DNA of 64,000 nt from positions 385,477 to 449,476 of the forward strand of contig JBBCIS010000003.1 of NCBI GenBank assembly GCA_037189845.1, read 5' to 3'. The DNA is from a bacterium. GTDB taxonomy: Bacteria; Bacteroidota; Bacteroidia; Chitinophagales; JADIYW01. The translations under genes and the position numbers were made by a program. Of the stretch, positions 20,323 through 36,842 are shown piece after piece; position 1 is the stretch's first letter; each line of letters begins with the position of its first letter. The notes below the pieces were generated by a model. That model saw only the letters and a program-made list of their open reading frames with translations, did not search any database and was not told the origin of the DNA.

Positions 20323-20506
20323 AGTTTTTTTGTTTAAGGTTTAAGGTTTGATGTTTAAAGTTTTGCTGTCGCCCGGTGGCTGAGCAGTTCGACTACGTGG
20401 TTGTTGAGCCCAGTCGAAACACTTACTGACCACGGAGTTGGAGCCTGATTGAGTCCACGGTCCACAGACCGCCGTATTTGTCGTCTGTCATCCGTGGTCT
20501 GTTGAG

Positions 20507-20905
20507 TTAAAACTTGTAGCCTATACCTATTCCCGGATGCCACCGGCCACTGACAGCCGATGTTTTGGGATTATAGAATACAGGTAGTTGCAAAGCAAAA
20601 TGTTTATAAGAAAGCGTGAGTCCTGCTCCCAGAGACGGCATGACAAATGAATTGGATACTTCATTGTTGTCTTTTTTGAACCGCAGGGAAGGCAAGACTC
20701 CGGCTAAAAGTGTAAATGATTTCTTCTTCCACTTGATAGCGGGCCCGGTGAAATTGAGATAAGCGCCTTTATCTACATATCCGGCTATTATATATCCCTC
20801 CCAGATCGAGAATGAGATATTTTTTTCCTTTTTACTTTCTTCTTTGGTGGATTCAGCAACGACCAGCAAGGGGAGCAACATGAATAGAGTAATGATGATT
20901 TTCAT
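20507..20905 (-). CDS. small predicted outer-membrane beta-barrel protein of unknown function
   Basis: Signal peptide, alternating amphipathic strands, C-terminal GIGYKF (terminal aromatic). Embedded between nirD and the FNT gene. Confidence 0.5.
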   Translation of the reverse strand: MKIIITLFMLLPLLVVAESTKEESKKEKNISFSIWEGYIIAGYVDKGAYLNFTGPAIKWKKKSFTLLAGVLPSLRFKKDNNEVSNSFVMPSLGAGLTLSYKHFALQLPVFYNPKTSAVSGRWHPGIGIGYKF

Positions 20906-20929
20906 ACAGTTTGGTTTTGACTACAGTAA

Positions 20930-21289
20930 TTAAAAGATTCCGATATAGACGATTCCATCATCAATCTTTACGGGATAGGTTTTGATGGCACATTCATCTC
21001 CGTTCAGGCATTCTCCTGTCTGGAGTGAAAATGTTTTTTTGTGGAATGGACAAGCTACTTTGGGTACTTCTCCGTGACTACCCAGCATTCCCCTGCTGAG
21101 TGCCATTTGCTTTTTGTGGGGACATTCATTTTGAGTAGCATACCATTCATCTCTGCGGGTAAAATAGAACAGAGCTATCTGCTGATCTTCATATTTGACA
21201 CATGCGCCTCCATTTTCGATGACATCTTCTGTCCTGCAGGCTGCAAACCATGTGCTGACAGCTGTTTTCGTTTCTTTTTCTTGTATCAT
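20930..21289 (-). CDS. nirD: nitrite reductase [NAD(P)H] small subunit (Rieske-type)
   Basis: CPHKKQMALS...VACPFHKKTF Rieske CxH...CxxH; 119 aa. Confidence 0.85.
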   Translation of the reverse strand: MIQEKETKTAVSTWFAACRTEDVIENGGACVKYEDQQIALFYFTRRDEWYATQNECPHKKQMALSRGMLGSHGEVPKVACPFHKKTFSLQTGECLNGDECAIKTYPVKIDDGIVYIGIF

Positions 21290-21478
21290 GGTTGTAGTTT
21301 AAAGTTCAATGTTTTTTTAGTCCACGGTCAACAGTCCACAGATCACCGTTTTGATGATTAGTTCACAGACCGCGGTTCATCCGCCTCGACAGATCGTTTT
21401 TGCTGTTATCGTTTGCGTTGTCTGTTTTCAGTCGTCCGTTGTCTAAAGTCTTTCATCTTTTCTCTTATGTCTTGAGCA

Positions 21479-23968: not shown

Positions 23969-24136
23969 TCCTGTTTGTTTTATTCCGACAACTCGGTTTA
24001 TTAAAAAATATATGTGAATTATTTTCAGAAAAACAACAAATAAATATATTGATATCCTGAAATTATAAATGAAATTATTGTAAAATCAAGATAGTTTTTC
24101 ATTTTTAAGATTAATTTAGAGTAAATTATATTACAT

Positions 24137-24973
24137 ATGAAAAATCATAAAGTAAAAAGATTGACATTGCTGGGAGCAGGTCCAGGAGACCCGGAGCTCT
24201 TTACTTTAAAGGGGGTCCGGGCATTAGAGGAGGCTGATGTGGTATTGTATGACGCATTGGTCAATGTGGAATTATTGAAATATGCAAAAAATGCTAAAGA
24301 GAAGATTTTTGTGGGAAAAAGGTTTGGATGTCATGCGCTTTCTCAAAAAGAAATCAATGAGCTGATTCAGGAAAAGGGGACGCAGTATAAAGATGTCGTC
24401 CGGCTGAAAGGGGGCGATCCTTTTGTTTTTGGCAGAGCACAGGAAGAAATTATTGCAGCCACCGAAGCCGGGATGGAAGTCCGTGTTATCCCCGGCATTT
24501 CTAGTGCGCTGGCAGTGCCTGCATCTCAAATGATATCGCTGACTTCCAGAGGAGTAAGTGACAGCTTCTGGGTGGTCACGGGTACAACCTGCTCGGGAGA
24601 GGTATCTTCTGATATTCATCTGGCGGCTCAATCAAAATCTACAATTGTCATCCTGATGGCGATGAATAAGCTGGAACAAATCATGGAACTCTTTTCTGAA
24701 TACGGAAAAGGGGATACACCTGTTGCTATTATACAGAACGGAACTACAGATACTGCTAAAATTGTAAGAGGCAGAGTAAGGGACATTTATTATCGTTCGC
24801 TTTACGCTGAAATCGGAAATCCTGCTGTCATCGTTGTAGGGGAAGTGGTAGAGCTGAATGAAAATATTGTCCGGCAACTGAAATCAGAGCGCTTTTTGAC
24901 GGCAGAAAATTTGTTCCTTGAAGACAATACAATAAATATAGACCGGGAACGGACAGGCGGGCTGAGCAGATAA
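24137..24973 (+). CDS. cobA: uroporphyrinogen-III C-methyltransferase (sirohaem synthesis)
   Basis: LLGAGPGDPELFTLKG...VVRLKGGDPFVFG SUMT signature; divergent from nirB, consistent with sirohaem supply. Confidence 0.85.
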   Translation: MKNHKVKRLTLLGAGPGDPELFTLKGVRALEEADVVLYDALVNVELLKYAKNAKEKIFVGKRFGCHALSQKEINELIQEKGTQYKDVVRLKGGDPFVFGRAQEEIIAATEAGMEVRVIPGISSALAVPASQMISLTSRGVSDSFWVVTGTTCSGEVSSDIHLAAQSKSTIVILMAMNKLEQIMELFSEYGKGDTPVAIIQNGTTDTAKIVRGRVRDIYYRSLYAEIGNPAVIVVGEVVELNENIVRQLKSERFLTAENLFLEDNTINIDRERTGGLSR

Positions 24974-25069
24974 ACACAGAAGAAAATCATTATTCATCAT
25001 ATCAATCAGTGTTACCAGCGTGCTATCTTAATTTATCCTGCTTACCAAAATGTCGTACTTTTATGACAG

Positions 25070-25762
25070 ATGAAAAAGAGCATAGTGCTGTCGGCTGAGA
25101 ATTGTTTCTTATATGAAAAATGCCAGGAGGCCTGGTGGCCGGCACTGGATGCTCATACGAAGCAAATCCGTATCAGAAAAGGGCAACAGATATTTACTGA
25201 GGGAGAGAAGGTTTCCGGAATCTATTTCATGGTAGAAGGTGTTGTCAAAGTACACAAACGGTGGAGTAATGACAAGGAGTTGATTGTGAGATTTGCTCAA
25301 AAGAAAGACATCCTCGGACACAGAGGATTGACTACACACACAGATATTTACCCGATATCGGCAACTGCATTGACAGATGCTGTTGTTTGCTTTATAGATT
25401 TACCATTTTTTTTCGCCAGCCTGAAAGTGAACGCTGCTCTGGCTCATGATATGATGATGTTTTTTGCTGACGAACTGATGCTATCTGAACAAAATCTGCA
25501 GGTACTGGCCAATCTGCATGTGAAAGGAAGGCTTGCAAGATTGCTTGTTTCACTGGAGAAAAAATTCGGAGTTGATGAAAACGGAGCAATATCTTTCCCT
25601 GTTTCCCGTCAGGATATGGCTTCCTGTATAAGTACTGTATACGAAACTGTTTATAAGCTGCTACTGGAATTTACAGATGCTGGTTGGGTGGAGACAAACG
25701 GAAAGCATCTTATTCTGAAGAACAAAGCTGCACTAAAAGAATTGTTCCAAAGTCCGGAATAG
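25070..25762 (+). CDS. Crp/Fnr-family transcriptional regulator
   Basis: cNMP-binding-like beta-roll plus C-terminal HTH (SRQDMASCISTVYETVYKLL). Only two N-terminal Cys (C12, C18), so not a classical 4-Cys FNR. Confidence 0.8.
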   Translation: MKKSIVLSAENCFLYEKCQEAWWPALDAHTKQIRIRKGQQIFTEGEKVSGIYFMVEGVVKVHKRWSNDKELIVRFAQKKDILGHRGLTTHTDIYPISATALTDAVVCFIDLPFFFASLKVNAALAHDMMMFFADELMLSEQNLQVLANLHVKGRLARLLVSLEKKFGVDENGAISFPVSRQDMASCISTVYETVYKLLLEFTDAGWVETNGKHLILKNKAALKELFQSPE

Positions 25763-25989: not shown

Positions 25990-28900
25990 TCAATTATCTC
26001 CACCTCTTTTTCCAAGCAGCTTCACCAGTTTCTGCATGTGCTCATTCAGCCCGGAGAATTGCATCAGTACCTGTGCAGTCTTGTCATCATCAGCGATACC
26101 GGAAAACTGGTTGTTTTTGCGGAAGGTTTCTGTGATGTGCAAATAGCGGGCCTGCTCTTCCGGAGTGGCGATATGCATCAGATGTTTCAGCTTTAAAAGA
26201 TTGGCTTCGGCATCGGAAGTGAGTGTCTGCGCATCTGCCTCATAAGATCCGATCACCAGCTGTATCAGCTCCTGCTCATTCATTAACGGGACGACTTTCG
26301 TGACCATTTTATTCATGTTGCGGTATGAACCCTGTAATTTGAACGCAGGTTCTGTACGGTAGGTGTCTTTCATTCCTGCGCTCTGAATGTATAGTTCGTT
26401 GACCTGAAGAATAATATTTCTGATGTACAGACAGTTTTTCAGAACAGCTATGCTGTCTTCGATTTCGGCAGCTGTATGGTTGGCTTCCAACTCCGGACTG
26501 TATTCTTCTTTGCGCTCGATATACTGTATGAGCTTGTACAGATCATTGATGTTTTTGTGGGCTATCGCCTGGAGATACCTGTTTTCGCTGATGGCATTTT
26601 CTATCAGGCTGAGGTCAAAATATTGCCTGCTCTCTCCTGCCACATCTCCCAGATTATATACATCCGAACGATTGGCCAGCATGTCCGGGATTTTGAAAAG
26701 ATTACCGCTTTCTGTATATGGATTACCCGCCATGACCACGCAGAATCTTTTGCCACGAAGGTCATAAGTTTTACTTTCTGATTCAAAGATGCCGTCTATC
26801 TTGCGCTGTCCGTCTGCCAGAGAGATAAACTGCTGTAAAAATTCAGGGCTGCAATGCTGGATATCATCTACATACAGCATGACATTGTCCGCCATCTCAA
26901 AGGAGAGGTTAATTTTTTCCAACTCTGCTTTTGCTCCTGAATTGGTAGCTTCTGACGGATCGATGCTGGTGATGCGGTGACCGATAGTAGGGCCGTTGAT
27001 TTTTACAAAATGTAGTCCCATCGTTGCTGCCAGATATTCCATCAGAGTGGTTTTACCATAACCCGGAGGAGAAATCAACAACAGCATACCCATTCTTGCT
27101 GTCCGCTTGTCATTGCCGATAGTACCCAGCTGCTTGGACAAATTGGCTCCAATCATAGGGAAATAGACTTCATTGATGAGCTTATTTCTCATGAATGAGC
27201 TGAGTACTTTGGGACGCATTTCCTGAATTTTTAACCGCTGCTCATATTTTTGGATGAGTCCGCGTTTGGTTTCCCTGAATGAGTCATACAACGGAACTGT
27301 TGTCTCATCGAAATGCTGTAAACGATTCAGAAAATCATGGTACTGAATATGATATCCCTGATCTGAGATCACCGGATGAGTACCCTTTAAGTCATGAATG
27401 GTCATGGCATCTGTACCGATGTGTTCCCGGTATGCATCAAATTCAAAAACCAGCAGACAGGCTGCTTCTTCTATATATTTGAGATTATAGGAATTTTCTT
27501 TTTGTGTAGTAACGAAGGCCTCTATCCAGTCCGAAATGGTATGGTAGCGTTCATAGAGGCTATACTGCTGATTGCGCGCATCTTCTTCAAAACGCTCCAT
27601 CTGATGGAGGTCATTCAGGTGCCTGATAAAATCATTTTTGATATGGATAGCCGGAATACTGGCGGTAAAAACCGGAGTATCCTCAAATTCAGCTATCAGA
27701 TATGATGCTATTGAATGAATGGTCCGCTGATGTAATTCGGGGTGAATTTTTTGTATCTCCTGTGTCAGTGCTTTGAAGGATTTCAATTCTTCAAATGGTG
27801 TCTGAAATAATTGATGAATCTTATGGGCTGATTGTATCCATTGGGATAATTTTTCCCTGGTTGCTTCTTCCAATTGTTTCCAGTACAATTGAGCCTGCAC
27901 CCTGATTTCTACAGAAAATCTCAGCACACCGAGTTCTTCATACATTTTCAGTAATGCTTCAAATATCATCAAGGCATCTGTATTGTGTACACCTTTTACA
28001 TATCCGCCTGCGTAATCTCTTTCTATTAAATTATCAATATAGGTCAATGCAGAAAATCCGTTATCCGTTTTGGTATAAGCTATAAAGGTGAGATAAGCCA
28101 GATATTCCGCCCGGTAAACGCCCGGATTTTCTGAACGGTAATCCTGATCCCAGACACTGATATATTGCTGAAAGATTTTCTGATCAATAGGCTGGTAAAA
28201 GTTGGTTCCCATCAGGTGATACATGAGCCTGTCCTGATGTTTGACGATGGTGAGCGATAATTCCTGCTTATTGACCGCAAACTTATATGTACCAAGTGCG
28301 ATAATATTTTGTCCGTCCACAAAAAGTTCGGCCTGATCATGCAAGACCCTCACTGCATTTTCCTGCGCCAGCTTGAGACTGTTAAGCAGGTTTTCAGCTT
28401 TCCCGACATCACCGAGCTGCTGAAGCTCCTGCGCAAGATTCCGGATTTTTTCTATCATGAGATCGCCGGCAAAAAAGCTGAAGATTTCTTCTGTTGAGCT
28501 AAAGCTACGGGCTTTGGTTTCCACACTTTTCAGGACACGAAGTCCTATTTGCTCAAGATTCCCGGTCCGTTTATTGATCTGTGCGATCAACATTTCTTTT
28601 TTACCATTGAAAGCTTTGACTACCTCATCCCGCTTATCAGCTATTTTCATTATAAACTCATCAAAGTCCGCAAACTTGCTTTCCAGCTCTTCGATGTGGA
28701 CACTGATTTTGGTGAAATAGTTGTCTGTTTTTTCGACAGTATCTGAAAGGTCCAGGAAATTGACAATGCTTTGTTCGAGCAAGGTCAGCTGTGCATGAAA
28801 CTCCCCGACTGCTTCACTGGACTTCAGGGTACTTATTTTCCTGTTCAATAAAGCTCTGACTTCATTCAATGTTGAAAAAAGCAAAGAGATATTCTCAATG

Positions 28901-30837
28901 ATTTTAGTCGTTTGAGTGGTATCTTCTATTTTAAGGCTGTTCAGTATGTCAATGAGCAATTCTAATTGTCCTGCTATGCTCAGACATTCCTTTTCAATGA
29001 CCTGTGCATCTATGACTTTACTGACAGCTTCGATAGCCTGACGTTGTGCTTCGATATTTTTCTCATAAGGCAGTAAAGCATTCTCCTGTAATAAAAAGTT
29101 GATGGTTTCCTGTGAAAGTTGTTCATTGAATGCTTTAACCTGCTCTGACAAAGCCTGAATTGCCTGCTCATCAATATATCTTACCTGTAATAATTCAATG
29201 ATACTGCCCTGCGCCAGGCGGACAGTATGTAGCTGTCTGACCAGCTCATCGACTGCGGTATAACGGGCATTCCTGATGGTTTGACTCAATTGTGCAATGC
29301 GTTCCTGCATGAGCTTTTCTTGTGCGGATGCGTACTGACGCTGTGCCTGTACTTTGGCAAATTCATCTATAGCTGTATTGGCTATCTCGCTGATGGCTTT
29401 CAGCGGTTCTGCAAGATTGAAAGTTTCTTCGTCAGCCAGCCAGAAATAGCTGTCTGTCATCGCACGGGACAATCTGGCTATATCTTCATACAATCCTTCA
29501 TAACTGTCTTCTTTCCTGAGCAGCTGTACTATCTCATATCCTTCAGACATGGCGTGTACGATATCTTTATTGCCGATTTTGTACAGGACATTGTTTCTCA
29601 TTTCCCGATTTTCCACCAGGATTGCGGTATATGGAGTCTGCCAGATTTGTACCTGATGATGCCTGATGGCTTCACGTTCTGATTTGAAATAAATCAGCTT
29701 TCCATCCTGAAAAATTGTAAATCCATTGCAGATGATGGGCGTATTGACCTGCTGCTGAATCACGTTGTAAGACATCAATACATAGGTATTGGAGGTCTTC
29801 TGATAATAAACATACAGATAGTCTTCTCCATTCGGAGCTATCATGGTACGCATGTATTCCAGCTCATCTATTCCGTTGTCGAAGAGCTTATATTCTCCGT
29901 TTTGCAGATAATAGCCGTTGGAAAAGATAATTCCCTGCTGATCCGGCAATAGAACTCCGCTGTACAACAGGCTCGGAATATTATGGACTTCTTTTGTCCT
30001 GATGTTATAAATATAGGCTCTGGACTCTTCCTGGTAGGGCTGTATTTTGATAGCAATCAGGTTGCCTAAATCCGCATAAAAATAGTTGGCATCATCCAGC
30101 TGCTGATCCTTGTTGCTGACTGGTTCTGAGTAAATTCCCAGTCCACTCTCCGTATTATCTTCAATTTTGAAGGTGATGTCTCCGTTGATCGCTTCGATAA
30201 ACACCTTGTCCAGGATAGATATATGCGGATGTACCCCCAATCGCCTGTCTTCCAGACTGGTCTTTTTGAAATCAAAGCTATACTGTGGTGCAGTTCTGAC
30301 CTCATGAATGCTTCTGTCATCTATGTATTGCAGGCGATTTCCATCTATATACCACTTAAAAGCTTTCCTGTCGGCTACATTTTTTGAGCTCTGGAAAATC
30401 ATGTACAGATAATTCTCCGTCTTGTAGAATTTGGAGAAAAAGGCTTCTCTGTAGTATTTATAGAGGTTTTTAAAATCTGCTTCAAACTGTGGATCTGCAA
30501 TCAAATCCAGTGTCGTAGGCTCAAATTGTATATCCTGAAAATGATAGATACTGAATACATCATCCAGTGAGATCTCTTCTCTCAATCCAAAGTGAACATT
30601 GTAAGCAAAAATGCAATGCTCGCCCAATGCTATTATACCTCTCGCTACTCCATTGTGCTCGGTAGTGATACGCTGATTGGCAATCAGTGCAAACTGTTCG
30701 GTATTGAAAATGGCTTTTCTTCCAACATTCAATGCTGCCAAGCGATCGCTCAGTATCTTGCTCTGCTCCTGTAAACGATTACGGATAATTTCGTAAGTAC
30801 CCGCTTCTAAAGACATCATTGGATTGGATTTTGGCAT
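25990..30837 (-). CDS. giant (1615 aa) multidomain protein with MoxR-type AAA+ ATPase core; function unknown
   Basis: Uninterrupted ORF. Walker A LLLISPPGYGKTT at ~27061-27090, Walker B MLYVDDIQ, and MoxR-like sensor-1/helix-2 region FCVVMAGNPYTESGNLFKIPDMLANRSDVY. ~450-aa beta-rich N-domain and ~600-aa Q/E/L-rich helical middle. Confidence 0.7.
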   Translation of the reverse strand: MPKSNPMMSLEAGTYEIIRNRLQEQSKILSDRLAALNVGRKAIFNTEQFALIANQRITTEHNGVARGIIALGEHCIFAYNVHFGLREEISLDDVFSIYHFQDIQFEPTTLDLIADPQFEADFKNLYKYYREAFFSKFYKTENYLYMIFQSSKNVADRKAFKWYIDGNRLQYIDDRSIHEVRTAPQYSFDFKKTSLEDRRLGVHPHISILDKVFIEAINGDITFKIEDNTESGLGIYSEPVSNKDQQLDDANYFYADLGNLIAIKIQPYQEESRAYIYNIRTKEVHNIPSLLYSGVLLPDQQGIIFSNGYYLQNGEYKLFDNGIDELEYMRTMIAPNGEDYLYVYYQKTSNTYVLMSYNVIQQQVNTPIICNGFTIFQDGKLIYFKSEREAIRHHQVQIWQTPYTAILVENREMRNNVLYKIGNKDIVHAMSEGYEIVQLLRKEDSYEGLYEDIARLSRAMTDSYFWLADEETFNLAEPLKAISEIANTAIDEFAKVQAQRQYASAQEKLMQERIAQLSQTIRNARYTAVDELVRQLHTVRLAQGSIIELLQVRYIDEQAIQALSEQVKAFNEQLSQETINFLLQENALLPYEKNIEAQRQAIEAVSKVIDAQVIEKECLSIAGQLELLIDILNSLKIEDTTQTTKIIENISLLFSTLNEVRALLNRKISTLKSSEAVGEFHAQLTLLEQSIVNFLDLSDTVEKTDNYFTKISVHIEELESKFADFDEFIMKIADKRDEVVKAFNGKKEMLIAQINKRTGNLEQIGLRVLKSVETKARSFSSTEEIFSFFAGDLMIEKIRNLAQELQQLGDVGKAENLLNSLKLAQENAVRVLHDQAELFVDGQNIIALGTYKFAVNKQELSLTIVKHQDRLMYHLMGTNFYQPIDQKIFQQYISVWDQDYRSENPGVYRAEYLAYLTFIAYTKTDNGFSALTYIDNLIERDYAGGYVKGVHNTDALMIFEALLKMYEELGVLRFSVEIRVQAQLYWKQLEEATREKLSQWIQSAHKIHQLFQTPFEELKSFKALTQEIQKIHPELHQRTIHSIASYLIAEFEDTPVFTASIPAIHIKNDFIRHLNDLHQMERFEEDARNQQYSLYERYHTISDWIEAFVTTQKENSYNLKYIEEAACLLVFEFDAYREHIGTDAMTIHDLKGTHPVISDQGYHIQYHDFLNRLQHFDETTVPLYDSFRETKRGLIQKYEQRLKIQEMRPKVLSSFMRNKLINEVYFPMIGANLSKQLGTIGNDKRTARMGMLLLISPPGYGKTTLMEYLAATMGLHFVKINGPTIGHRITSIDPSEATNSGAKAELEKINLSFEMADNVMLYVDDIQHCSPEFLQQFISLADGQRKIDGIFESESKTYDLRGKRFCVVMAGNPYTESGNLFKIPDMLANRSDVYNLGDVAGESRQYFDLSLIENAISENRYLQAIAHKNINDLYKLIQYIERKEEYSPELEANHTAAEIEDSIAVLKNCLYIRNIILQVNELYIQSAGMKDTYRTEPAFKLQGSYRNMNKMVTKVVPLMNEQELIQLVIGSYEADAQTLTSDAEANLLKLKHLMHIATPEEQARYLHITETFRKNNQFSGIADDDKTAQVLMQFSGLNEHMQKLVKLLGKRGGDN

Positions 30838-30962: not shown

Positions 30963-33038
30963 TTACGAAAGCTTTTTATTAGACAATCCGAGATTGCTGG
31001 CCATATTCAAAAGATTATTGATTAACGGCCGGTCAGAATCATCACTCTGCTGATGCATTTTGAGTAAGATGCTGGAAATCGTCAGATTCTTAATATCGTT
31101 GGTGCTGACATTGTATTTGTCAGCAAAATCTCTGATTTTATCCAGTAGATCTCCGTTGGAAGAGCCATCTCCAATCAATGCATTTTTGATATGCGTGGCA
31201 TTCTCACTTTCGTTGATTAATCTATCGAAACCTTTGGCGTTAGAAACCTGATCGACAATATTCCGGAAGAACATGGTCTCTCCACCTACGATATCTATGT
31301 TGGCTGATTTCAGTGCCTCGGAAAGGACATCTGCCTGAGCCACTGCAACATCTTTCTGGATATTGATCTGTGCAAGTGCAATATCTTTATCTTTCTGCAC
31401 AAGGATTTTGAACTCTTCGTGGTCTTTGCCAACGCCGTCCAGCTTCTTCATTGCCTCTGCTTTCTCTTCAATACCGGATGCTTCTGCCAACGCTTTCTCT
31501 TTTGTTCCTTCTGCTTCCGCAAATGCTTTTTGTTTCATCACTTCCGCTTCCATCAGACCTTCTTTGCGTTTCGCATCTGCCATTTTCTCTACTACATTCG
31601 CCTCGACGATACCCTGGCGCTCAGTTGCAGCTGCTTTTGCCATCATTACTTCTGCTTCAGATAAACCGATAGTCGCTTCCTCACGTGCCTGGGCTTCTGC
31701 AAGAATTTTCCTTGCTTCTGCTTGTTTTGTAGCTGCATCTTTACGAGCTTCTGCATCGATCAGCATTTCTTTGGCTTTTTCTTCCGCCGCCTTTTTGTCC
31801 GCTTCTGCCGCTTTCACGGTATAGATTAATTTTTCTTCTGCCTGACGGGAAGCTTCGGTGATACCGACTGTTTTCACTCTTTCCACCTCACGGAAAGCTT
31901 CAATATCTTTGATGTTCTGCTCTTCTTCGACTACGCCTTTTTCTAATTTGACGCGCTCTTTGATGACATCCTGGATGTTTTTGCGTTCGATCTCGACCGT
32001 TTTTTCTTTCTCTATCTGGGCGAGTGTGACAATTTTCTCTTTTTCTGTCTGCTCCAATAATTTGTCTTTCTCTACTCTTTCAGTCTCTACCGCATCTGTT
32101 CTCAGCTTATTTTTCTCTGCAATGATGATCTGACGGAGCTTATTTTCTTCCTGAATGGCTAATTGTTCTTCTGTACGGATTCTGACCGTTTCAGATTTTA
32201 GTCTTTCTTCTTCTCTGACTTTGAGAATTTCTGCTTCTTCCCTGGATTTAATATTGTCAATTTCTCTTTTTTGCTTCTCTTCTTTTTCAGCCATCTGACG
32301 TTCCAATTCCAGTATAGCTTCTCTGGCTTCTACATTTTGTTTTTTGATGACTTTCTCCTCTTCTCTGCGGATCAGATTGGATTTGATATTCTGAGCGGCA
32401 GTCAGTTCCGTGATCTTTTTGATACCTTCTGAATCAAGGATATTTTCTGCACTTAAAAATCTTAGTTCCGTCTGTTCTAAATAATCGATAGCACAATCAT
32501 CTAAAATATATCCATTGAGGTCAGTACCGATCACATCCAGAATCTCATCCCTGAACTCCCGACGTGCTTCATACAGCTCTATGAAATCGAATTTTTTACC
32601 CGCAGTTTTAAGTGCTTCAGAAAATTTGGCTTCAAAAACGTTATTCAGCGTATCTACATCACTGGCACGGTCGCAACCTATCACCTGCGCTACATTGATG
32701 ACGTCATCAACACTTTTGTTGACCCGTACAAAAAATGCAACTTTGATATCTGCCCGGATATTATCCTTACAAATCAAACCATCGTGTTCCATCCGGTCGA
32801 TTTGTAATTTTTTTACGGAAATATCCATTATTTCCATTTTATGCAAAATAGGAATCACGTACATACCACTGTTAAAAGCAACCTTGCTGCCTCCGACACC
32901 TGTCCTTACGATAGCCTTGCCTTGCGGAATTTTTTTGTAAAATGTCGCAAATGCAAATAGTACAACGACGATAATGAAGATCACTCCGCATATCAACAGG
33001 ATGAGTAATCCTCCCAAATTGTCAAATAATGTTCCCAT
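30963..33038 (-). CDS. flotillin-family SPFH (band 7) protein
   Basis: N-terminal TM segment; SPFH domain; ~350 aa of E/K/A/R-rich coiled coil; 691 aa. Architecture of YqiK/FloT-type flotillins. Confidence 0.85.
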   Translation of the reverse strand: MGTLFDNLGGLLILLICGVIFIIVVVLFAFATFYKKIPQGKAIVRTGVGGSKVAFNSGMYVIPILHKMEIMDISVKKLQIDRMEHDGLICKDNIRADIKVAFFVRVNKSVDDVINVAQVIGCDRASDVDTLNNVFEAKFSEALKTAGKKFDFIELYEARREFRDEILDVIGTDLNGYILDDCAIDYLEQTELRFLSAENILDSEGIKKITELTAAQNIKSNLIRREEEKVIKKQNVEAREAILELERQMAEKEEKQKREIDNIKSREEAEILKVREEERLKSETVRIRTEEQLAIQEENKLRQIIIAEKNKLRTDAVETERVEKDKLLEQTEKEKIVTLAQIEKEKTVEIERKNIQDVIKERVKLEKGVVEEEQNIKDIEAFREVERVKTVGITEASRQAEEKLIYTVKAAEADKKAAEEKAKEMLIDAEARKDAATKQAEARKILAEAQAREEATIGLSEAEVMMAKAAATERQGIVEANVVEKMADAKRKEGLMEAEVMKQKAFAEAEGTKEKALAEASGIEEKAEAMKKLDGVGKDHEEFKILVQKDKDIALAQINIQKDVAVAQADVLSEALKSANIDIVGGETMFFRNIVDQVSNAKGFDRLINESENATHIKNALIGDGSSNGDLLDKIRDFADKYNVSTNDIKNLTISSILLKMHQQSDDSDRPLINNLLNMASNLGLSNKKLS

Positions 33039-33188: not shown

Positions 33189-33848
33189 TTAGTCTTGTAA
33201 TACATTTTGAACAGTAATCTCCGGAATGACCCAGTAGTATTTTCCTCCGTCTCCTTCATCTACCAGCATAACCTCTGCATTATATGAAATACGTTGTTTT
33301 GATTTACTTTTTACCAAAACCCTGATAACATCTTTCATAATGATAACTTCAGCATATCCCAGCTTGTCTCCTTCGATAGTAGATTTCATAAATCCTGTCC
33401 GCCCGATCAGCTCATGTGCTTCTTCGCCATTATATCCCATTGTTTTATACACTTTGATGAGTGGTTTGGTGGCCCATCTGGTCAAAAAATATGCAATGAA
33501 AAAAACCGGTAACAATATCAAAGCAGACTTCCAGCCCCATGCACCGATGTTCCAGATCATAGAAGCAGCTAAAGTAAACAACCAGGAAATCAGCTTGAAT
33601 GTACTGAGGACGACCATTATCGGCACTTTACCTACGTTAATAAATTCCAGCGCTTTGGAAAAAAAAGATGGTTCTGCGCCGTCAAGATCTGTGTCTACAT
33701 CTAATCCTTCCGGTGCTCCTACATCCAGGTCTCCCAGAAAATCTCCTGAAACGAATGTGACTAACCAATATATAGCAGACAGTCCTACTAAAGCCGTCAT
33801 GATAGCATTCGGTAAAGGGTCAAACAGATAGCTGATAATTGTTACCAT
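33189..33848 (-). CDS. NfeD-like membrane protein (YuaF/YqiJ-type, C-terminal OB-fold)
   Basis: Multi-TM N-terminus; C-terminal ...GDKLGYAEVIIMKDVIRVLVKSKSKQRISYNAEVMLVDE beta-barrel pattern. Sits immediately upstream of the flotillin gene, as in yuaF-floT / yqiJK. Confidence 0.65.
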   Translation of the reverse strand: MVTIISYLFDPLPNAIMTALVGLSAIYWLVTFVSGDFLGDLDVGAPEGLDVDTDLDGAEPSFFSKALEFINVGKVPIMVVLSTFKLISWLFTLAASMIWNIGAWGWKSALILLPVFFIAYFLTRWATKPLIKVYKTMGYNGEEAHELIGRTGFMKSTIEGDKLGYAEVIIMKDVIRVLVKSKSKQRISYNAEVMLVDEGDGGKYYWVIPEITVQNVLQD

Positions 33849-33867: not shown

Positions 33868-34566
33868 TTACATACCCAGCTTGCTTTTGATTTCCGCAAG
33901 CTCTTTTTGAATAGAAAACCGATCATCTTTACAGATCTCGTCTATTTCATCTTTCACGCTGTGCTGAGCCTGAGCAATTTCTCCATACGCTTTAGCGAGT
34001 GCTTCCTGATCTTCAACTTTATCTTTCATTCTCTCCAGCATAGAAATCGTACTGTTGCTTTCAATCTGAGCGATTTGCTTATTCACCTGTTGTGTAGCAG
34101 CACTCACTTTGACTCTTGCACGTAACGTTTTCAGCTCCTTTTCCCATTTCGCCAGATTTTCTTTCAAGATCTGGATATTCTTCAGCATCTCTACTCCGGT
34201 CTGCTCATGAGTTTCCGCTTGTTGACCCAGCATTTCCGCATCCTCCAGATATTTTCTTTTCAGCGAAAGTGCCTCTGTTGCCAATTGCTCGGCTTTTTCA
34301 ATTTCCAGTTCCTGATCCTGTGCTTTTTTCAAAATCAGGATCGCCTTGTCTCCATAACTGACAGATTCCTTTTCACAGTGTGTCTGCTCATTTCGGGCAC
34401 GGATGCCCAAAGCTTTTACTCTGGCATACGCCTCTGTCGCTTGTGTCAAATCTTCTCTCAATTCTCTCAAACCCTGCTCTGTCATCTTCACAGGATCTTC
34501 CATTTTTTCTACAGCGGCATGAATCTCTGCCTGACCGATTCGAAATAATCTCTTGAAAATATTCAT
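33868..34566 (-). CDS. pspA: PspA/IM30 (ESCRT-III superfamily) protein
   Basis: MNIFKRLFRIGQAEIHAAVEKMEDPVKMTEQGLRELREDL aligns with the PspA/Vipp1 N-terminus (E. coli [28 protein letters not shown]); all-helical; 232 aa. Confidence 0.85.
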   Translation of the reverse strand: MNIFKRLFRIGQAEIHAAVEKMEDPVKMTEQGLRELREDLTQATEAYARVKALGIRARNEQTHCEKESVSYGDKAILILKKAQDQELEIEKAEQLATEALSLKRKYLEDAEMLGQQAETHEQTGVEMLKNIQILKENLAKWEKELKTLRARVKVSAATQQVNKQIAQIESNSTISMLERMKDKVEDQEALAKAYGEIAQAQHSVKDEIDEICKDDRFSIQKELAEIKSKLGM

Positions 34567-34585: not shown

Positions 34586-34984
34586 TTATCGTTTAGAAAA
34601 ATATATTATCTGCTCTCTGTATTCATAGAGTAGTAACCCTAATGAGTTCAGTGCAGCTTCCAGCTCGTTGAAATCCATATTCTCAATCTGCATGGTATAC
34701 CTGTACAAAACTTTATCACCCTCTTCGTTGATCACAAAGGCCCCATGCAGCATATCCCTGTTTTTCTGCAGCAATGCCTTGAACATTTCAAGATTATCTT
34801 CCTTGAATGAAAAGAGATAATACTCCATGATCAACAAGGGTGGCACTACGCCAATAATCAGATTCCTGATTCCGTCCTGCTCATTCTCAATTTTCATGAT
34901 TCCGGACAACTCATCTGCATAAGTCACTTTGTACTCTGCCTGGTGAATCAACTCCCTGATTTTATCCATGTATGATACTCTCAT
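34586..34984 (-). CDS. YbjN/DUF2170-like (type III secretion chaperone-fold) small protein, PspA-adjacent
   Basis: ~133 aa from Met MRVSYMDKIREL. Size, alpha/beta pattern and position next to pspA resemble E. coli yjfI-yjfJ and YbjN-family proteins. The ORF-track N-extension to 35074 is rejected. Confidence 0.45.
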   Translation of the reverse strand: MRVSYMDKIRELIHQAEYKVTYADELSGIMKIENEQDGIRNLIIGVVPPLLIMEYYLFSFKEDNLEMFKALLQKNRDMLHGAFVINEEGDKVLYRYTMQIENMDFNELEAALNSLGLLLYEYREQIIYFSKR

Positions 34985-35051
34985 AGGCAATTTATTTTTA
35001 GATTGAAAATATTGCTTACCTTTAAGCATAATAAAATTAGCAAAAAATATT

Positions 35052-35078
35052 TTAATTGCAAATATTTTTTGCAATTAA
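35052..35078. promoter_or_regulatory. perfect palindromic operator TTAATTGCAAA-N5-TTTGCAATTAA in the divergent promoter between the XRE regulator and the PspA cluster
   Basis: 11-bp arms are exact reverse complements. Additional half-site-like AATTAGCAAAA (35033) and AATTAGCACAT (35087, overlapping the XRE start codon). Confidence 0.7.
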
Positions 35079-35097: not shown

Positions 35098-35775
35098 ATG
35101 ACAAAGTTCGGTGTAAATATTAAGAAAATCAGGAAGACAAAAGGGCTAAGCCAACAGTCTCTTGCCGATATTTTCAATATTACCAGGGGGAACATCTCTT
35201 CTTATGAAGATAACCGCGCTGAGCCCAGACTAGAAACTATTATATCAATTGCTAATTATTTTGGCATTACAATTGAAAAATTATTAACAAAAGACCTCAC
35301 TATTAATGAGATCCTGCAGTTCAATTCAGATAAAATCATAGAAGATGAACAGAGATTGAGCAATCTGAAGCTGAAAGATGTTTATTTTATTAGCGATGAT
35401 ATTTTAGCAAAAGGCCTGCATCAGGATATCAGCTTTGAGGATTTTGACCAGTTTCCGCTTATTAAAATTCCGGACACCAGCACTTCATCTATTATCGCAT
35501 TGAGCTTCAATTCTAATATCCCGCATCATCAATATTTTGAGCAGTTTCCTTTAAATGATTTGTTGTTTTTCAGAAATATAGACCCTGCAAATATTCATCT
35601 TCTGGATCAGAAAATGGGGATGTCACTGAGTTCTCATAGCATTGTTTTAGGTCAATTTATTCAAGAACCTGATCAGGAAATTACTTTTTTTCTGAATCAG
35701 CAGTATCAGGAAAAAGTGGACTTGCAACAGACCAAGAGATACTGGAAGTTATTTGCCAGCTACAAGCATTTATAG
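35098..35775 (+). CDS. XRE (Cro/cI-type) HTH transcriptional regulator with uncharacterised C-terminal domain
   Basis: N-terminal IKKIRKTKGLSQQSLADIFNITRGNISSYEDNRAEPRLETIISIANYFGITIEKLL is a canonical XRE HTH; 225 aa. Confidence 0.8.
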   Translation: MTKFGVNIKKIRKTKGLSQQSLADIFNITRGNISSYEDNRAEPRLETIISIANYFGITIEKLLTKDLTINEILQFNSDKIIEDEQRLSNLKLKDVYFISDDILAKGLHQDISFEDFDQFPLIKIPDTSTSSIIALSFNSNIPHHQYFEQFPLNDLLFFRNIDPANIHLLDQKMGMSLSSHSIVLGQFIQEPDQEITFFLNQQYQEKVDLQQTKRYWKLFASYKHL

Positions 35776-36524: not shown

Positions 36525-36740
36525 CACGGCATTCGCATTTAACTTTTTAGAGAATAGTAGAAAAATAATCATTTAAAATTTAGCTACGAATTCACTTATT
36601 AGAGGATAAATATTCCTGTTCTTTTCATGAAACGAGTGGCATCATGATAATATAATGATATCAAAAGCTTCTTTTCCCTGTTGAAAAATTCAATTCGTGT
36701 ATTAGTGGCAAACAATCTGCTTTTAATTGCGAGCGCCGTG
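36525..36740 (+). repeat. MITE-like intergenic repeat, copy B (216 bp), imperfect TIR CACGGCATTCGCATTT / AATTGCGAGCGCCGTG
   Basis: Shares both end blocks with copy A and carries an extra internal ~70-bp segment. Confidence 0.7.
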
Positions 36741-36842
36741 CCGACAAATATTGTTTGCTGGTTGAATTCAGCGTTCATCGTTTTAAACTATTGTAAAAAT
36801 TTAAGATTTTATACATATTTTCATGCATACAAAGATATAGCT

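What the first reader, a model, noticed from the sequence alone, without database searches (positions are those of the whole stretch)
25990..30837. 1615-aa protein: unusual architecture with a MoxR-type AAA+ module placed ~360 aa from the C-terminus
Single uninterrupted ORF. The AAA+ core lies at ~26640-27090 (Walker A SPPGYGKTT; Walker B YVDDIQ; sensor region FCVVMAGNPYTESGNLFKIPDMLANRSD). This parallels the MoxR/RavA pattern (ATQNP...LPEAQLDRF). There is no vWA partner gene nearby, which is atypical for MoxR ATPases. The N-terminal ~450 aa are beta-rich and aromatic-rich (possible propeller-like sensor). The central ~600 aa are Q/E/L-rich coiled coil. The C-terminal ~200 aa are helical. This domain combination is not one I can assign to a named family.
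Basis: partly seen in the sequence, partly recalled or inferred. Interest (0 to 1): 0.8.

Follow-up and report, generated by a model that had tools for sequence, protein, structure and literature searches.

The report
Flotillin/PspA-operon giant AAA+ ATPase (BacE family)
The 1615-residue ORF is real, but it is an ordinary member of a widespread, already catalogued and biochemically unstudied family (Pfam DUF3686/DUF7902, Pseudomonas aeruginosa BacE/PA3728) that is encoded next to a flotillin-type membrane scaffold and, here, a PspA membrane-repair protein; it is not a MoxR ATPase that lost its vWA partner.

Summary
There is one uninterrupted 1615-codon ORF, and the Walker A, Walker B and sensor motifs sit at the stated coordinates. 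The N-terminus is a β-propeller, the centre is helical, and no vWA gene lies nearby.

- **Not MoxR:** the MoxR profile AAA_3 scores below threshold. No MoxR structure is matched. The partner genes are never vWA.
- **Named family exists:** Pfam DUF3686 (E 5e-156) and DUF7902 both match. Full-length relatives of about 1600 aa occur in at least 566 species across at least eight phyla.
- **Already published:** Ravi et al. 2024 describe the same operon in Dokdonia: a divergent HTH regulator, then CesT-like chaperone, PspA, YqiJ/NfeD, flotillin, and "β-propeller + coiled-coil + AAA-ATPase".
- **Pseudomonas link:** I traced the family to P. aeruginosa BacE (PA3728) of the bacABCDEF operon. That operon is co-transcribed and is induced by phage infection.

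The conserved core is NfeD–flotillin–ATPase, found with both partners in 56 of 63 informative loci.

Most likely function (inferred): a cytoplasmic ATP-driven remodeller of flotillin/PspA membrane assemblies during envelope stress. The biochemistry is untested. Novelty is low and residual interest is moderate.

The parts
25990..30837 (-). Whole ORF of the BacE-family β-propeller / helical / AAA+ ATPase: 1615 codons, annotated from Met8 (nt 30816) as 1608 aa.
   Evidence: It is 36% identical over aa 11-1606 to the 1746-aa Pseudomonas BacE-locus protein.
29593..30702 (-). N-terminal β-propeller, aa ~46-415, lying within Pfam DUF3686 (aa 29-465). A helix at aa 12-43 precedes it.
   Evidence: Pfam E 5e-156. 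The AlphaFold2 model has about 29 strands at pLDDT about 80. Every Foldseek PDB hit is a β-propeller, E 1e-5 to 1e-3.
28318..29592 (-). Helical arm, aa 416-840. It consists of spectrin-repeat-like helical bundles and includes Pfam DUF7902 (aa 586-668).
28189..28305 (-). Small β unit, aa 845-883, joining the helical arm to the middle domain.
   Evidence: Strands at the C-terminal end of the N model and the N-terminal end of the C model.
27238..28125 (-). All-α middle domain, aa ~905-1200. Its fold is unassigned.
   Evidence: pLDDT is mostly above 90. Foldseek against the PDB returned AAA+ proteins only (top 50, E ≥ 8.7e-5), so no PDB match could be assigned to this domain.
26608..27120 (-). AAA+ core, aa ~1240-1410. 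It carries Walker A GYGKTT, Walker B hhhhDD (DDIQH), sensor-1 N1372 and candidate Arg finger R1390. About 22 residues are inserted before β4, at the pre-sensor-1 position.
   Evidence: The motifs are invariant, with essentially no insertions or deletions, across 74 full-length homologues from several phyla. The AlphaFold2 model is low-confidence here, pLDDT 45-70.
25993..26607 (-). C-terminal helical region, aa 1411-1615: the AAA+ lid plus a further helical bundle.
   Evidence: pLDDT 80-90 for aa ~1410-1570. R1494 and R1506 are invariant and R1473 is nearly invariant (≥90%).
30963..33038 (-). Partner gene: 691-aa flotillin-like SPFH protein with an N-terminal TM segment and a long E/K/A-rich helical region.
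   Evidence: TM at aa 1-38. Weak FloT hit over aa 19-175. Band_7 matches 5 of 37 close homologues, best E 3e-13. RefSeq names the pQBR103 homologue 'SPFH domain-containing protein'. It lies upstream on the same strand in 60 of 63 loci.
33189..33848 (-). Partner gene: 219-aa YqiJ/YuaF-type short NfeD, with 3 TM segments and a β-rich C-terminal domain.
   Evidence: YqiJ_N E 4e-4. Hydrophobic segments at aa 14-35, 75-98 and 104-127. Found together with the flotillin gene in 56 of 63 loci.
33868..34566 (-). Partner gene: PspA/IM30 (ESCRT-III superfamily), 232 aa.
   Evidence: PF04012 E 7e-37. Present in 32 of 62 loci, all Bacteroidota, and in the Pseudomonas bac locus.
34586..35074 (-). Partner gene: CesT/Tir-like (YbjN-like) chaperone. 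It is annotated as 147 aa, window 34586..35029.
   Evidence: CesT_Tir_1 E 4e-43. Gene call.
35098..35775 (+). Divergently transcribed XRE-type HTH regulator. It is conserved with the five-gene operon in Bacteroidota.
   Evidence: HTH_3 E 9e-13. The divergent homologue is present in 32 of 62 loci. Ravi et al. Table S3 lists it as '<-cHTH+Protease'.

Best explanation
The ORF encodes a BacE-family protein. This is a cytoplasmic ATPase of about 1600 aa with no TM segment. It is built from an N-terminal β-propeller, a spectrin-like helical arm, an all-α middle domain and a divergent AAA+ motor near the C-terminus.

It is the ATP-consuming component of a conserved three-gene membrane module: a YqiJ/NfeD membrane protein, a long flotillin-type SPFH scaffold, and this ATPase. 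In this genome, as in other Bacteroidota and in Pseudomonas, the module is extended by a CesT-like chaperone and a PspA (bacterial ESCRT-III) gene. Here it also has a divergent XRE regulator.

Proposed mechanism:
- The propeller and helical arm dock on the membrane-bound flotillin/NfeD assembly and, where present, on PspA polymers.
- The AAA+ domains oligomerise and use ATP to assemble, open, remodel or recycle those scaffolds during envelope stress. This role is analogous to Vps4 acting on ESCRT-III, or to AAA+ partners of other SPFH cages.

Shown here: family membership, domain anatomy, motif integrity and conserved gene linkage. Taken from the literature: co-transcription and stress or phage induction of the Pseudomonas operon. 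Inferred only: direct binding to flotillin or PspA, the oligomeric state, and what the ATPase actually does to them.
For: **Family.**
- DUF3686 (E 5e-156), DUF7902 and AAA match.
- 2935 clusters at 90% identity reach E<1e-5, the best 120 nearly all about 1610 aa.
- 328 clusters at 50% identity reach E<1e-30.
- At least 566 species loci were found, covering the full length at 40-59% identity. They come from Bacteroidota, Planctomycetota, Verrucomicrobiota, Kiritimatiellota, Omnitrophota, Desulfobacterota and Clostridia. Vibrio and Streptomyces also carry it, as do Deinococcus, Proteus and Halomonas.

**The motor is under strong constraint.** Walker A, the DDIQH Walker B, sensor-1 Asn and an Arg are invariant, with essentially no insertions or deletions across phyla.

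**Gene linkage.**
- The flotillin-like gene lies upstream on the same strand in 60 of 63 loci, and together with YqiJ/NfeD in 56 of 63.
- PspA is present in 32 of 62, CesT in 31 of 62 and the divergent HTH in 32 of 62, all in Bacteroidota.
- The flotillin partner is itself highly conserved, E 1e-160 to 0.
- On plasmid pQBR103 the triad follows DUF2491, DUF350, DUF1190 and glutathionylspermidine-synthase genes. Ravi et al. describe the same set as linked to PspA.

**Published description.** The identical operon is in PMC11237479 section 19 and Table S3.

**Pseudomonas link.**
- PA14 bacE/bacF RT-PCR primers map inside the 1746-aa DUF3686-AAA ORF and the following PLD ORF.
- That ORF aligns with the window protein at 36% identity over aa 11-1606.
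- bacA to bacF are co-transcribed, and BacB to BacF proteins rise 6- to 13-fold in a bacA mutant (PMC10948618).

**Localisation.** The ATPase has no TM segment, whereas both core partners do.

**Precedent for AAA+ working with an SPFH cage.** FtsH with HflK/C (abstract of PMC13220708).
Against: - No biochemical or interaction data exist for any family member. Searches for DUF3686 and for 'DNA repair ATPase' with flotillin found no papers.
- The loop where classical AAA translocases carry an aromatic pore-loop residue is G-H-x-(V/I)-T-S-x-D-P and has no aromatic. A Vps4-style threading mechanism is therefore not indicated.
- Walker B is DD rather than DE. This may mean slow hydrolysis or switch-like behaviour.
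- No MIT-like ESCRT-III-binding domain was identified.
- About half of the loci lack PspA in the operon, so PspA cannot be the universal substrate.
- Deleting the P. aeruginosa flotillin partner PaFlo3 gave only about a 20% drop in biofilm and no other phenotype (PMC13086221).
- The AlphaFold2 model of the AAA+ core is poor, pLDDT 45-70.
Confidence: 0.5

Rival explanations
1. Membrane-protein quality-control motor. The flotillin/NfeD assembly holds damaged or unfolded membrane clients. The AAA+ ATPase extracts, unfolds or releases those clients rather than remodelling the scaffold itself. This would be a protease-less analogue of FtsH with HflK/C.
For: The conserved core is NfeD, flotillin and ATPase, without PspA. 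S. aureus FloA-NfeD is reported to stabilise unfolded proteins without ATP, and FtsH works with HflK/C (summarised in PMC13086221 and PMC13220708). β-propellers commonly serve as substrate or adaptor platforms (established knowledge).
Against: The pore-loop position has no aromatic residue. No protease or client gene is conserved in the operon; the ORFs occasionally inserted between the flotillin and ATPase genes are heterogeneous. No experimental data exist.
Confidence: 0.2
2. Conflict or anti-phage module. The ATPase acts as a sensor or switch NTPase that, with the flotillin scaffold (and a PLD effector in Proteobacteria), alters or sacrifices the membrane on infection.
For: PA3728-PA3732 are induced by phage infection. 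A PLD/HKD gene ends the Pseudomonas operon. In Vibrio the triad sits in an island with an IS605-family OrfB/TnpB transposase gene, an RNA ligase, a kinase-like gene, HipBA, TelA and NUDIX/NAD-salvage genes. An AbiEii toxin gene and an IS200 transposase are inserted within the module in some loci. Weak STAND-type P-loop hits occur.
Against: PADLOC gave no hit for the flotillin, NfeD-like or CesT-like proteins, and only marginal ones for the others: mad8 at E 1.5e-4 on the ATPase P-loop and weak CARF-model hits on PspA. There is no copy in 50,697 phage records and only 13 in 72,556 plasmid records, mostly megaplasmids or chromids. Sequence and length are highly uniform and identity broadly follows taxonomy, unlike typical patchy defence genes. 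The STAND hits cover only the P-loop. Induction by phage is the defining behaviour of PspA stress systems and does not imply immunity.
Confidence: 0.12
3. One reading: a MoxR-type AAA+ chaperone that has lost or relocated its vWA/MIDAS partner.
For: The sensor-1 to Arg-finger stretch (NPYTESG...IPDMLANR) resembles the MoxR/AAA_5 pattern by eye. AAA_5 matches all 56 members tested, best E 1e-8, through profile position ~127 of 139. IMG labels some homologues 'MoxR-like ATPase'.
Against: AAA_3 is below threshold, matching 20 of 56 with best E 0.015. A profile of this stretch hits no AAA+ or MoxR structure in the PDB. No MoxR structure is among the top Foldseek hits or the top 60 profile hits. 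No helix-2 insert appears in the model. The conserved neighbours are NfeD and flotillin, and none of the homologues of the window's operon genes detected around the ATPase gene in 63 informative loci is a vWA protein. The protein is five times the size of a MoxR.
Confidence: 0.06
4. The database name taken literally: a DNA-repair ATPase.
For: Only the Pfam description of DUF3686 ('ATPase involved in DNA repair') and the NCBI product name derived from it. There are weak RuvB_N hits over the P-loop.
Against: No DNA-binding, nuclease or helicase domain was found. No repair gene is conserved nearby. The partners are membrane proteins. The RuvB similarity is limited to about 45 residues around Walker A. 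No paper supports the name.
Confidence: 0.02

Closest known systems
Pseudomonas aeruginosa BacE (PA14_16190 / PA3728) of the bacABCDEF 'biofilm-associated cluster'
   Same: It has the same Pfam architecture, DUF3686 + DUF7902 + AAA. It is 36% identical and colinear over aa 11-1606. The gene order is the same: chaperone, PspA, short NfeD, long SPFH protein, ATPase.
   Different: BacE is 1746 aa. Its operon starts with a DUF2170 (YjfI-type) chaperone rather than a CesT_Tir_1/YbjN type, and ends with a PLD (HKD) gene that is absent here. The published promoter is σ54-type, whereas here a divergent XRE regulator is conserved. Only operon-level data exist for BacE; the protein itself has not been studied.
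The 'β-propeller + coiled-coil + AAA-ATPase' gene of the CesT/Tir-PspA-YqiJ-flotillin operon (Ravi et al. 2024, PMC11237479; example Dokdonia donghaensis ANH61663.1 neighbourhood)
   Same: It has the same phylum, the same five genes in the same order, and the same divergent cHTH regulator.
   Different: None of substance; this window is another instance. That paper gives only a computational description and proposes a general chaperone or assembly role.
Vps4 / CdvC acting on ESCRT-III (functional analogue)
   Same: An AAA+ ATPase is genetically coupled to an ESCRT-III-superfamily protein (PspA). Both are cytoplasmic and act at the inner face of the membrane.
   Different: No MIT domain was found. 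There is no aromatic pore loop and no classical second region of homology. An insertion sits before β4. Walker B is DD. PspA is missing from about half of the operons. The resemblance is analogy, not membership.
FtsH with HflK/C, and other SPFH-NfeD cages (QmcA/YbbK-YbbJ, FloA-NfeD)
   Same: An SPFH scaffold and an NfeD-type partner are encoded together, and an AAA+ machine is functionally attached to an SPFH assembly.
   Different: This ATPase has no protease domain and no TM anchor. It is a distinct AAA+ lineage, and its flotillin partner is an unusually long protein of about 690 aa.
MoxR / RavA / CbbQ (AAA_3, COG0714)
   Same: It has an AAA+ P-loop core and a similar-looking NP..G..R stretch after sensor 1. 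A β-hairpin-type insertion before sensor 1 is likely.
   Different: It fails the AAA_3 profile. No helix-2 insert is seen, there is no vWA partner, and it is five times larger.
RuvB and classical AAA (p97/Cdc48, Rix7)
   Same: These give the best sequence matches to solved structures, but only over Walker A to β2 (E 1e-5 to 3e-4). The DDIQH motif resembles RuvB's DEIH, which I recall from memory rather than from a tool result.
   Different: There is no detectable similarity beyond about 45 residues. The domain context is unrelated.

Membership tests
DUF3686/DUF7902 AAA+ ATPases (BacE family) | N-terminal DUF3686 domain above the Pfam threshold | tested here: met
   520 bits against a cut-off of 25, aa 29-465, covering the whole 448-position profile.
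DUF3686/DUF7902 AAA+ ATPases (BacE family) | DUF7902 within the helical arm | tested here: met
   82 bits against a cut-off of 26, aa 586-668.
DUF3686/DUF7902 AAA+ ATPases (BacE family) | C-terminal AAA+ core with the family motifs GYGKTT, DDIQH, MAGNPYTESG and PDMLxNR | tested here: met
   All are present and invariant in 74 homologues.
DUF3686/DUF7902 AAA+ ATPases (BacE family) | Full-length colinearity with family members, including the Pseudomonas BacE-locus protein | tested here: met
   The listed loci cover essentially the full query (about residues 1-9 to 1600-1614) at 40-59% identity, apart from a few truncated by contig ends. Identity to the 1746-aa Pseudomonas protein is 36% over aa 11-1606.
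DUF3686/DUF7902 AAA+ ATPases (BacE family) | Encoded directly downstream of a YqiJ/NfeD gene and a long flotillin-like SPFH gene | tested here: met
   True in the window. The flotillin gene is present in 60 of 63 related loci and both partners in 56 of 63.
MoxR AAA+ (AAA_3 / COG0714) | Match to the MoxR-specific profile PF07726 above threshold | tested here: not met
   15.3 bits against a cut-off of 27 (E 0.019). Only 20 of 56 members match at E≤1.
MoxR AAA+ (AAA_3 / COG0714) | Helix-2 insert (a β-hairpin within α2) | tested here: inconclusive
   The AlphaFold2 model shows β2, an 18-residue loop and then a normal α2, with no hairpin. pLDDT there is only 45-70.
MoxR AAA+ (AAA_3 / COG0714) | Adjacent vWA/MIDAS partner gene | tested here: not met
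   None among the window's neighbours. The conserved neighbours in 63 loci are NfeD and flotillin. The rest of the genome could not be examined.
MoxR AAA+ (AAA_3 / COG0714) | Detectable similarity to solved MoxR-family structures (RavA, CbbQ, MoxR) | tested here: not met
   None in the top 60 profile hits. The Walker B-to-lid profile gave no AAA+ or MoxR hit. None in the top 50 Foldseek hits.
Classical AAA clade (PF00004: Vps4, p97, FtsH) | PF00004 match above threshold | tested here: met
   32-35 bits against a cut-off of 21.2, but only over profile positions 1-109 of 131.
Classical AAA clade (PF00004: Vps4, p97, FtsH) | Second region of homology with paired arginines, and no insertion before β4 | tested here: not met
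   About 22 residues (DGQRKIDGIFESESKTYDLRGKRF) lie between α3 and β4. The alignment to PF00004 ends at sensor 1. Only one conserved Arg (R1390) follows.
Classical AAA clade (PF00004: Vps4, p97, FtsH) | Aromatic-hydrophobic-Gly pore loop 1 | tested here: not met
   The conserved sequence at that position is NGPxIGHx(V/I)TSxDP, with no aromatic residue.
DNA repair ATPases (database product name) | A DNA-binding or DNA-processing domain, or conserved linkage to repair genes | tested here: not met
   No such Pfam or NCBIfam domain was found. The neighbours are membrane-stress genes.
Known anti-phage defence systems (PADLOC-DB 2.0) | Significant match of the ATPase or its partners to a defence-system model | tested here: not met
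   For the ATPase, only a P-loop-level hit to mad8, E 1.5e-4 and 19 bits. The flotillin, NfeD-like and CesT-like proteins gave nothing; PspA gave only weak CARF-model hits (E 7e-5 and 2e-3).
Vps4-type ESCRT-III disassemblase (functional class) | ATP-dependent disassembly of ESCRT-III/PspA polymers through a dedicated binding domain | not testable with these tools
   Only genetic linkage to PspA is shown, in 32 of 62 loci. No MIT-like domain was recognised.

The most novel reading that the evidence does not exclude
The BacE family is the missing ATP-driven machine of bacterial membrane-scaffold biology. It would be an AAA+ motor that evolved independently of Vps4. It would dock through its propeller and spectrin-like arm on closed flotillin/NfeD cages, and on PspA (ESCRT-III) polymers where these are co-encoded. 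It would then open or recycle them. This would explain how these very stable assemblies are turned over in bacteria of at least eight phyla.
Probability: 0.3. Interest if true: 0.7.

Novelty: new member of a known kind. Interest (0 to 1): 0.35.

Why it matters
How bacterial flotillin/SPFH cages and PspA/ESCRT-III polymers are assembled and taken apart is an open question. Ravi et al. note explicitly that it is unknown how PspA homologues without an associated AAA ATPase regulate assembly.

A strongly conserved ATPase of about 1600 aa, welded genetically to a specific flotillin/NfeD pair in hundreds of species, is the obvious candidate motor. No member has been purified or mutated individually.

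This window adds nothing new to that picture; it is one more instance. The analysis does do three useful things.
- It ties the Bacteroidota gene to P. aeruginosa BacE/PA3728 by sequence.
- It shows that 'MoxR-like' and 'DNA repair ATPase' are misleading labels.
- It records features any mechanism must explain: an invariant DD Walker B, no aromatic pore loop, and an insertion before sensor 1.

Tried and rejected
- **Promoter and terminator scan of 25-36 kb.** Counts were no higher than in shuffled sequence, and σ70 consensus is unsuitable for Bacteroidota. Uninformative.
- **Structure prediction with a diverse alignment built from loci.** This probably explains the poor model of the AAA+ core.
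- **PDB sequence searches for the flotillin partner.** A single-sequence search found nothing. A profile search found only a weak coiled-coil hit to QmcA. SPFH identity rests on Band_7 hits in 5 of 37 homologues, a weak FloT hit, the RefSeq name and the literature.
- **ORFs between the flotillin and ATPase genes in some loci.** These were tested as possible extra system members. They are heterogeneous: β-lactamase, esterase, AbiEii, IS200 transposase and DUF559. Rejected as insertions.
- **C-terminal extensions of PVC and Desulfobacterota homologues.** They are low-complexity or helical repeats, ankyrin-like repeats (judged by eye), or lysine-rich tails. Not part of the core.
- **Conserved PspA C-terminal 'ELxxLKxKLG' helix as a possible Vps4-MIM-like docking motif.** Rejected as evidence, because from memory the same motif occurs in PspA proteins with no such ATPase, for example E. 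coli PspA.
- **Primer search.** The first PA14 primer (the bacD/bacE reverse primer) had no exact match in metagenome contigs. The second primer succeeded.
- **Literature.** The search combining 'bacE' with other terms was swamped by BACE-1 papers.
Full report
**1. The observation**

Window 25990..30837 on the minus strand is one open reading frame of 1615 codons. An identical protein is already in public databases, called from Met8 as 1608 aa. It lies on a 964,838-bp contig of assembly GCA_037189325.1.

| Motif | Residues | Window nt |
|---|---|---|
| SPPGYGKTT | 1256-1264 | 27046-27072 |
| YVDDIQ | 1322-1327 | 26857-26874 |
| FCVVMAGNPYTESGNLFKIPDMLANRSD | 1365-1392 | 26662-26745 |

Walker A lies 359 residues from the C-terminus. 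The ORF is not a fusion artefact or a pseudogene. Relatives covering essentially the full query length at 40-59% identity were recovered from at least 566 species genomes.

**2. Domain anatomy**

Pfam finds three regions:
- DUF3686 at aa 29-465, E 5e-156.
- DUF7902 at aa 586-668, E 3e-23.
- A weak AAA / AAA_5 match at aa 1252-1377.

Two AlphaFold2 models were built from 61-sequence alignments. Together they give the following layout.

| Residues | Feature | Support |
|---|---|---|
| 12-43 | Single helix | |
| 50-400 | About 29 β-strands; every Foldseek PDB hit is a β-propeller (IFT-A WD40, acylaminoacyl peptidase, CyRPA, YncE, PON1, kelch, Fbw7), E 1e-5 to 1e-3 | |
| 845-883 | Small β unit | |
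| ~905-1200 | All-α domain, pLDDT above 90, no PDB match assignable to it | |
| ~1240-1410 | AAA+ core, poorly modelled (pLDDT 45-70) | |
| 1411-1615 | Helical lid plus bundle | |

The 'central 600-aa coiled coil' is in fact spectrin-like bundles followed by a separate α domain. The protein has no hydrophobic segment.

**3. What kind of AAA+**

The core is extraordinarily conserved. Across 74 full-length homologues from several phyla it has essentially no insertions or deletions. GYGKTT, DDIQH, MAGNPYTE-G, PDML-NR and YNLG are invariant or nearly so. This argues for a working enzyme.

Three features stand out in the same alignment:
- Walker B is hhhhDD, not DE.
- The pore-loop-1 position reads NGPxIGHx(V/I)TSxDP and has no aromatic residue.
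- About 22 residues lie between α3 and β4, the position of a pre-sensor-1 β-hairpin.

MoxR assignment was tested in several ways.
- In 56 diverse members, AAA (best E 1e-9), AAA_5 (1e-8) and RuvB_N (2e-6) match all 56. The MoxR model AAA_3 matches 20, with best E 0.015 and below its cut-off.
- A family profile against all PDB sequences matches only the Walker A-β2 stretch of p97/Cdc48, Rix7 and RuvB, at E 1e-5 to 3e-4.
- A profile restricted to Walker B through the lid contains the 'MoxR-like' stretch. It gives no AAA+ or MoxR hit, only an insignificant match (E 1.4) to a splicing factor.
- Foldseek's top 50 hits are Ycf2/FtsHi, ClpA, p97, spastin, FtsH, MCM and RuvB. No MoxR-family chain is among them.
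- The model has a normal α2 and no helix-2 insert (low confidence).

I conclude that this is an orphan AAA+ lineage. It probably belongs to the pre-sensor-1-hairpin group. It is not a member of the MoxR family, and it is not a classical AAA either.

**4. Family and distribution**

- 2935 clusters at 90% identity match at E<1e-5. The best 120 are nearly all about 1610 aa, at 58-74% identity, apart from four of 1697-1731 aa. They come mostly from Chitinophagaceae and Cytophagales and are named 'DNA repair ATPase' or 'MoxR-like ATPase'.
- At 50% clustering, 328 representatives reach E<1e-30. Full-length ones are 1590-1930 aa.
- Members occur in Bacteroidota, Planctomycetota, Verrucomicrobiota, Kiritimatiellota, Omnitrophota, Desulfobacterota and Clostridia.
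- They also occur in Vibrio and Streptomyces, and in Deinococcus, Proteus, Halomonas, Photobacterium and Pseudomonas.
- The gene is absent from 50,697 phage records. It is present in 13 of 72,556 plasmid records, mostly megaplasmids or chromids.

**5. Genomic context**

Upstream on the same strand in the window lie four genes:
- A CesT_Tir_1/YbjN-type chaperone (34586-35074).
- PspA/IM30 (33868-34566).
- A 3-TM YqiJ/YuaF-type short NfeD (33189-33848).
- A 691-aa protein with an N-terminal TM segment and a long charged helical region (30963-33038).

That last protein is flotillin-like on four grounds:
- A weak FloT hit.
- Band_7 hits in 5 of 37 close homologues, best E 3e-13.
- The RefSeq name 'SPFH domain-containing protein' for the pQBR103 homologue.
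- The description in the literature.

An XRE-type HTH gene is transcribed divergently (35098-35775).

I then searched 80 related loci with the window's own proteins.
- The flotillin-like gene lies upstream on the same strand in 60 of the 63 loci with enough flanking DNA.
- It lies there together with the NfeD-like gene in 56 of 63. This holds in all phyla sampled.
- PspA (32 of 62), CesT (31 of 62) and the divergent HTH (32 of 62) are added only in Bacteroidota.

The invariant core is therefore NfeD, flotillin and ATPase. ORFs occasionally found between the flotillin and ATPase genes are unrelated insertions.

On plasmid pQBR103 the triad follows DUF2491, DUF350, DUF1190 and glutathionylspermidine-synthase genes. 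Ravi et al. describe the same set as PspA-linked.

**6. What is already published**

Ravi et al. 2024 (PMC11237479) describe exactly this operon class. [quoted passage not shown] They note that the abbreviated flotillin-YqiJ-(ATPase) form is more widespread. Their Table S3 entry for Dokdonia donghaensis is the same arrangement as in this window, including the divergent cHTH gene.

The P. aeruginosa bac cluster (PMC10948618) is a six-gene operon, bacA to bacF. It is co-transcribed and has a σ54-type promoter. BacB to BacF proteins rise 6- to 13-fold in a bacA mutant.

I linked the family to that operon as follows.
- The published PA14_16190/16200 forward RT-PCR primer occurs exactly in several contigs of 66-67% G+C.
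- There it lies in the 3' end of a 1746-aa ORF, and the reverse primer lies in the next ORF.
- The six ORFs are DUF2170, PspA, a 213-aa protein, a 688-aa flotillin homologue, DUF3686+DUF7902+AAA, and PLDc_2.
- The 1746-aa protein aligns with the window protein at 36% identity over aa 11-1606.

So BacE (PA14_16190, PA3728) is a member of this family, and BacF is the PLD enzyme that Ravi et al. mention for Proteobacteria.

Other published facts about the Pseudomonas operon:
- PA3728 ('ATPase') is listed among genes recurrently mutated in cystic-fibrosis isolates (PMC8190622).
- Deleting the flotillin partner PaFlo3 gives only about a 20% loss of biofilm (PMC13086221).

No paper on the protein itself was found.

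**7. Mechanism**

*Shown.* The protein is a cytoplasmic, apparently active AAA+ enzyme. Its gene is tied to a specific NfeD/flotillin pair and, in two phyla, to PspA and a chaperone. At least in Pseudomonas it is expressed as one stress-induced unit with them.

*Inferred.* The propeller and spectrin-like arm bind the membrane scaffold. The oligomerised AAA+ domains use ATP to assemble, open or recycle flotillin and PspA assemblies. This is analogous to Vps4 on ESCRT-III, or to the FtsH-HflK/C pairing.

I give about 0.9 to membership of this membrane-stress module. I give about 0.35 to scaffold remodelling as the specific activity, and 0.5 to the explanation overall.

*Points against a Vps4-like threading mechanism.* There is no aromatic pore loop, Walker B is DD, no MIT domain was found, and PspA is absent from half the operons.

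*Rivals.*

| Rival | Confidence |
|---|---|
| Client-extraction or quality-control motor working with a flotillin holdase | 0.2 |
| Conflict or defence module | 0.12 |
| MoxR chaperone without a vWA partner | 0.06 |
| DNA-repair ATPase | 0.02 |

The defence reading has some support:
- Induction by phage.
- The PLD gene in Pseudomonas.
- A Vibrio island context with an IS605-family transposase (TnpB-type) gene, an RNA ligase, HipBA and TelA.

Against it:
- PADLOC gave no convincing match.
- The gene is absent from phages.
- Sequence and length are uniform across taxa.

**8. Verdict**

The finding is real and well described. It is not an unassignable or anomalous architecture. It is another member of a known, widespread and computationally described family whose biochemistry is still unknown.

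The 'MoxR-type' and 'DNA repair' labels are both unsupported.

Novelty is 'new member of a known kind'. Interest is 0.35: low for the finding as such, and kept above trivial because the family is a good, untested candidate for the ATP-driven partner of bacterial flotillin/PspA scaffolds.

Noticed in passing
L081:7294-14821 (Vibrio alginolyticus LJTH01000004.1): The abbreviated triad (213-aa, 615-aa and 1606-aa genes) sits in what looks like a variable island. Around it are an IS605-family OrfB/TnpB gene, an RNA ligase, an HD/KTI12/AAA_33 kinase-like gene, R2K ATP-grasp genes, HipBA, TelA, and NUDIX/NAD-salvage genes.
   Followed up: partly
L073:8715-9383, L020:5662-6186, L008:8515-9948, L044:9362-9919, L077:2478-3347: Unrelated genes are inserted between the flotillin and ATPase genes in some genomes: an AbiEii toxin, an IS200 transposase, a β-lactamase, a DUF559 endonuclease-like gene and an esterase. 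The flotillin-ATPase junction seems to tolerate insertions.
   Followed up: yes
L010:9977-14824 and L065:9944-15259: In Dysgonomonas capnocytophagoides and a Rubripirellula MAG the ATPase gene is split into two ORFs. This could be a frameshift, a pseudogene or an assembly error.
   Followed up: no
window 30103-30246 (aa 198-245 of the ATPase): A propeller segment with very low model confidence (pLDDT 38-51) is nevertheless among the most conserved stretches across phyla: G201, H205, T222, K224, N228, T229, G232, G234, E238 and Q245 are invariant. It may be a binding loop that needs a partner in order to fold.
   Followed up: no
L028, L033, L045, L059, L069, L070, L073 (3' ends of the ATPase genes): Planctomycetota, Verrucomicrobiota and Desulfobacterota homologues carry C-terminal extensions of 110-340 aa. 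These include repeats of a 'VVAQLxxFxxGLExI'-type helix, apparent ankyrin-like repeats (L059), TPR-like sequence (L069, L073) and lysine-rich tails (L033, L045).
   Followed up: partly
L096:56-11190 (P. fluorescens SBW25 plasmid pQBR103): A 425-kb plasmid carries the NfeD-SPFH-ATPase triad directly after DUF2491, DUF350, DUF1190 and glutathionylspermidine-synthase genes. This joins two of the PspA-associated gene sets of Ravi et al. into one cluster.
   Followed up: partly
L094:9545-9718 and L086:3943-4118: The published bacE/bacF RT-PCR primer pair lies 174 bp apart in these Pseudomonas-type contigs, whereas the paper's supplementary table lists a 501-bp product. The published bacD/bacE reverse primer was not found, either exactly in metagenome contigs or with up to 3 mismatches in the Pseudomonas-type contigs.
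   Followed up: no
window 19519-25762: Immediately downstream, convergent with the ATPase gene, lies a Crp/Fnr-type regulator. It is followed by a tetrapyrrole methylase, an NirB-type assimilatory nitrite reductase with a Rieske/NirD-like small subunit, and a formate/nitrite transporter. This is an unrelated nitrite-assimilation cluster.
   Followed up: no
window 36681-39503: A 940-aa protein carries DUF11/CLIPPER repeats, DUF7619 and a Por_Secre_tail (type IX secretion sorting domain). This fits a Bacteroidota origin for the window.
   Followed up: no
whole window (record JBBCKK010019223.1 of GCA_037189325.1): The contig is numbered above 19,000 in its assembly yet is 965 kb long and bacterial in content. 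This suggests a bacterial contig inside a very large, possibly host or mixed, assembly.
   Followed up: no
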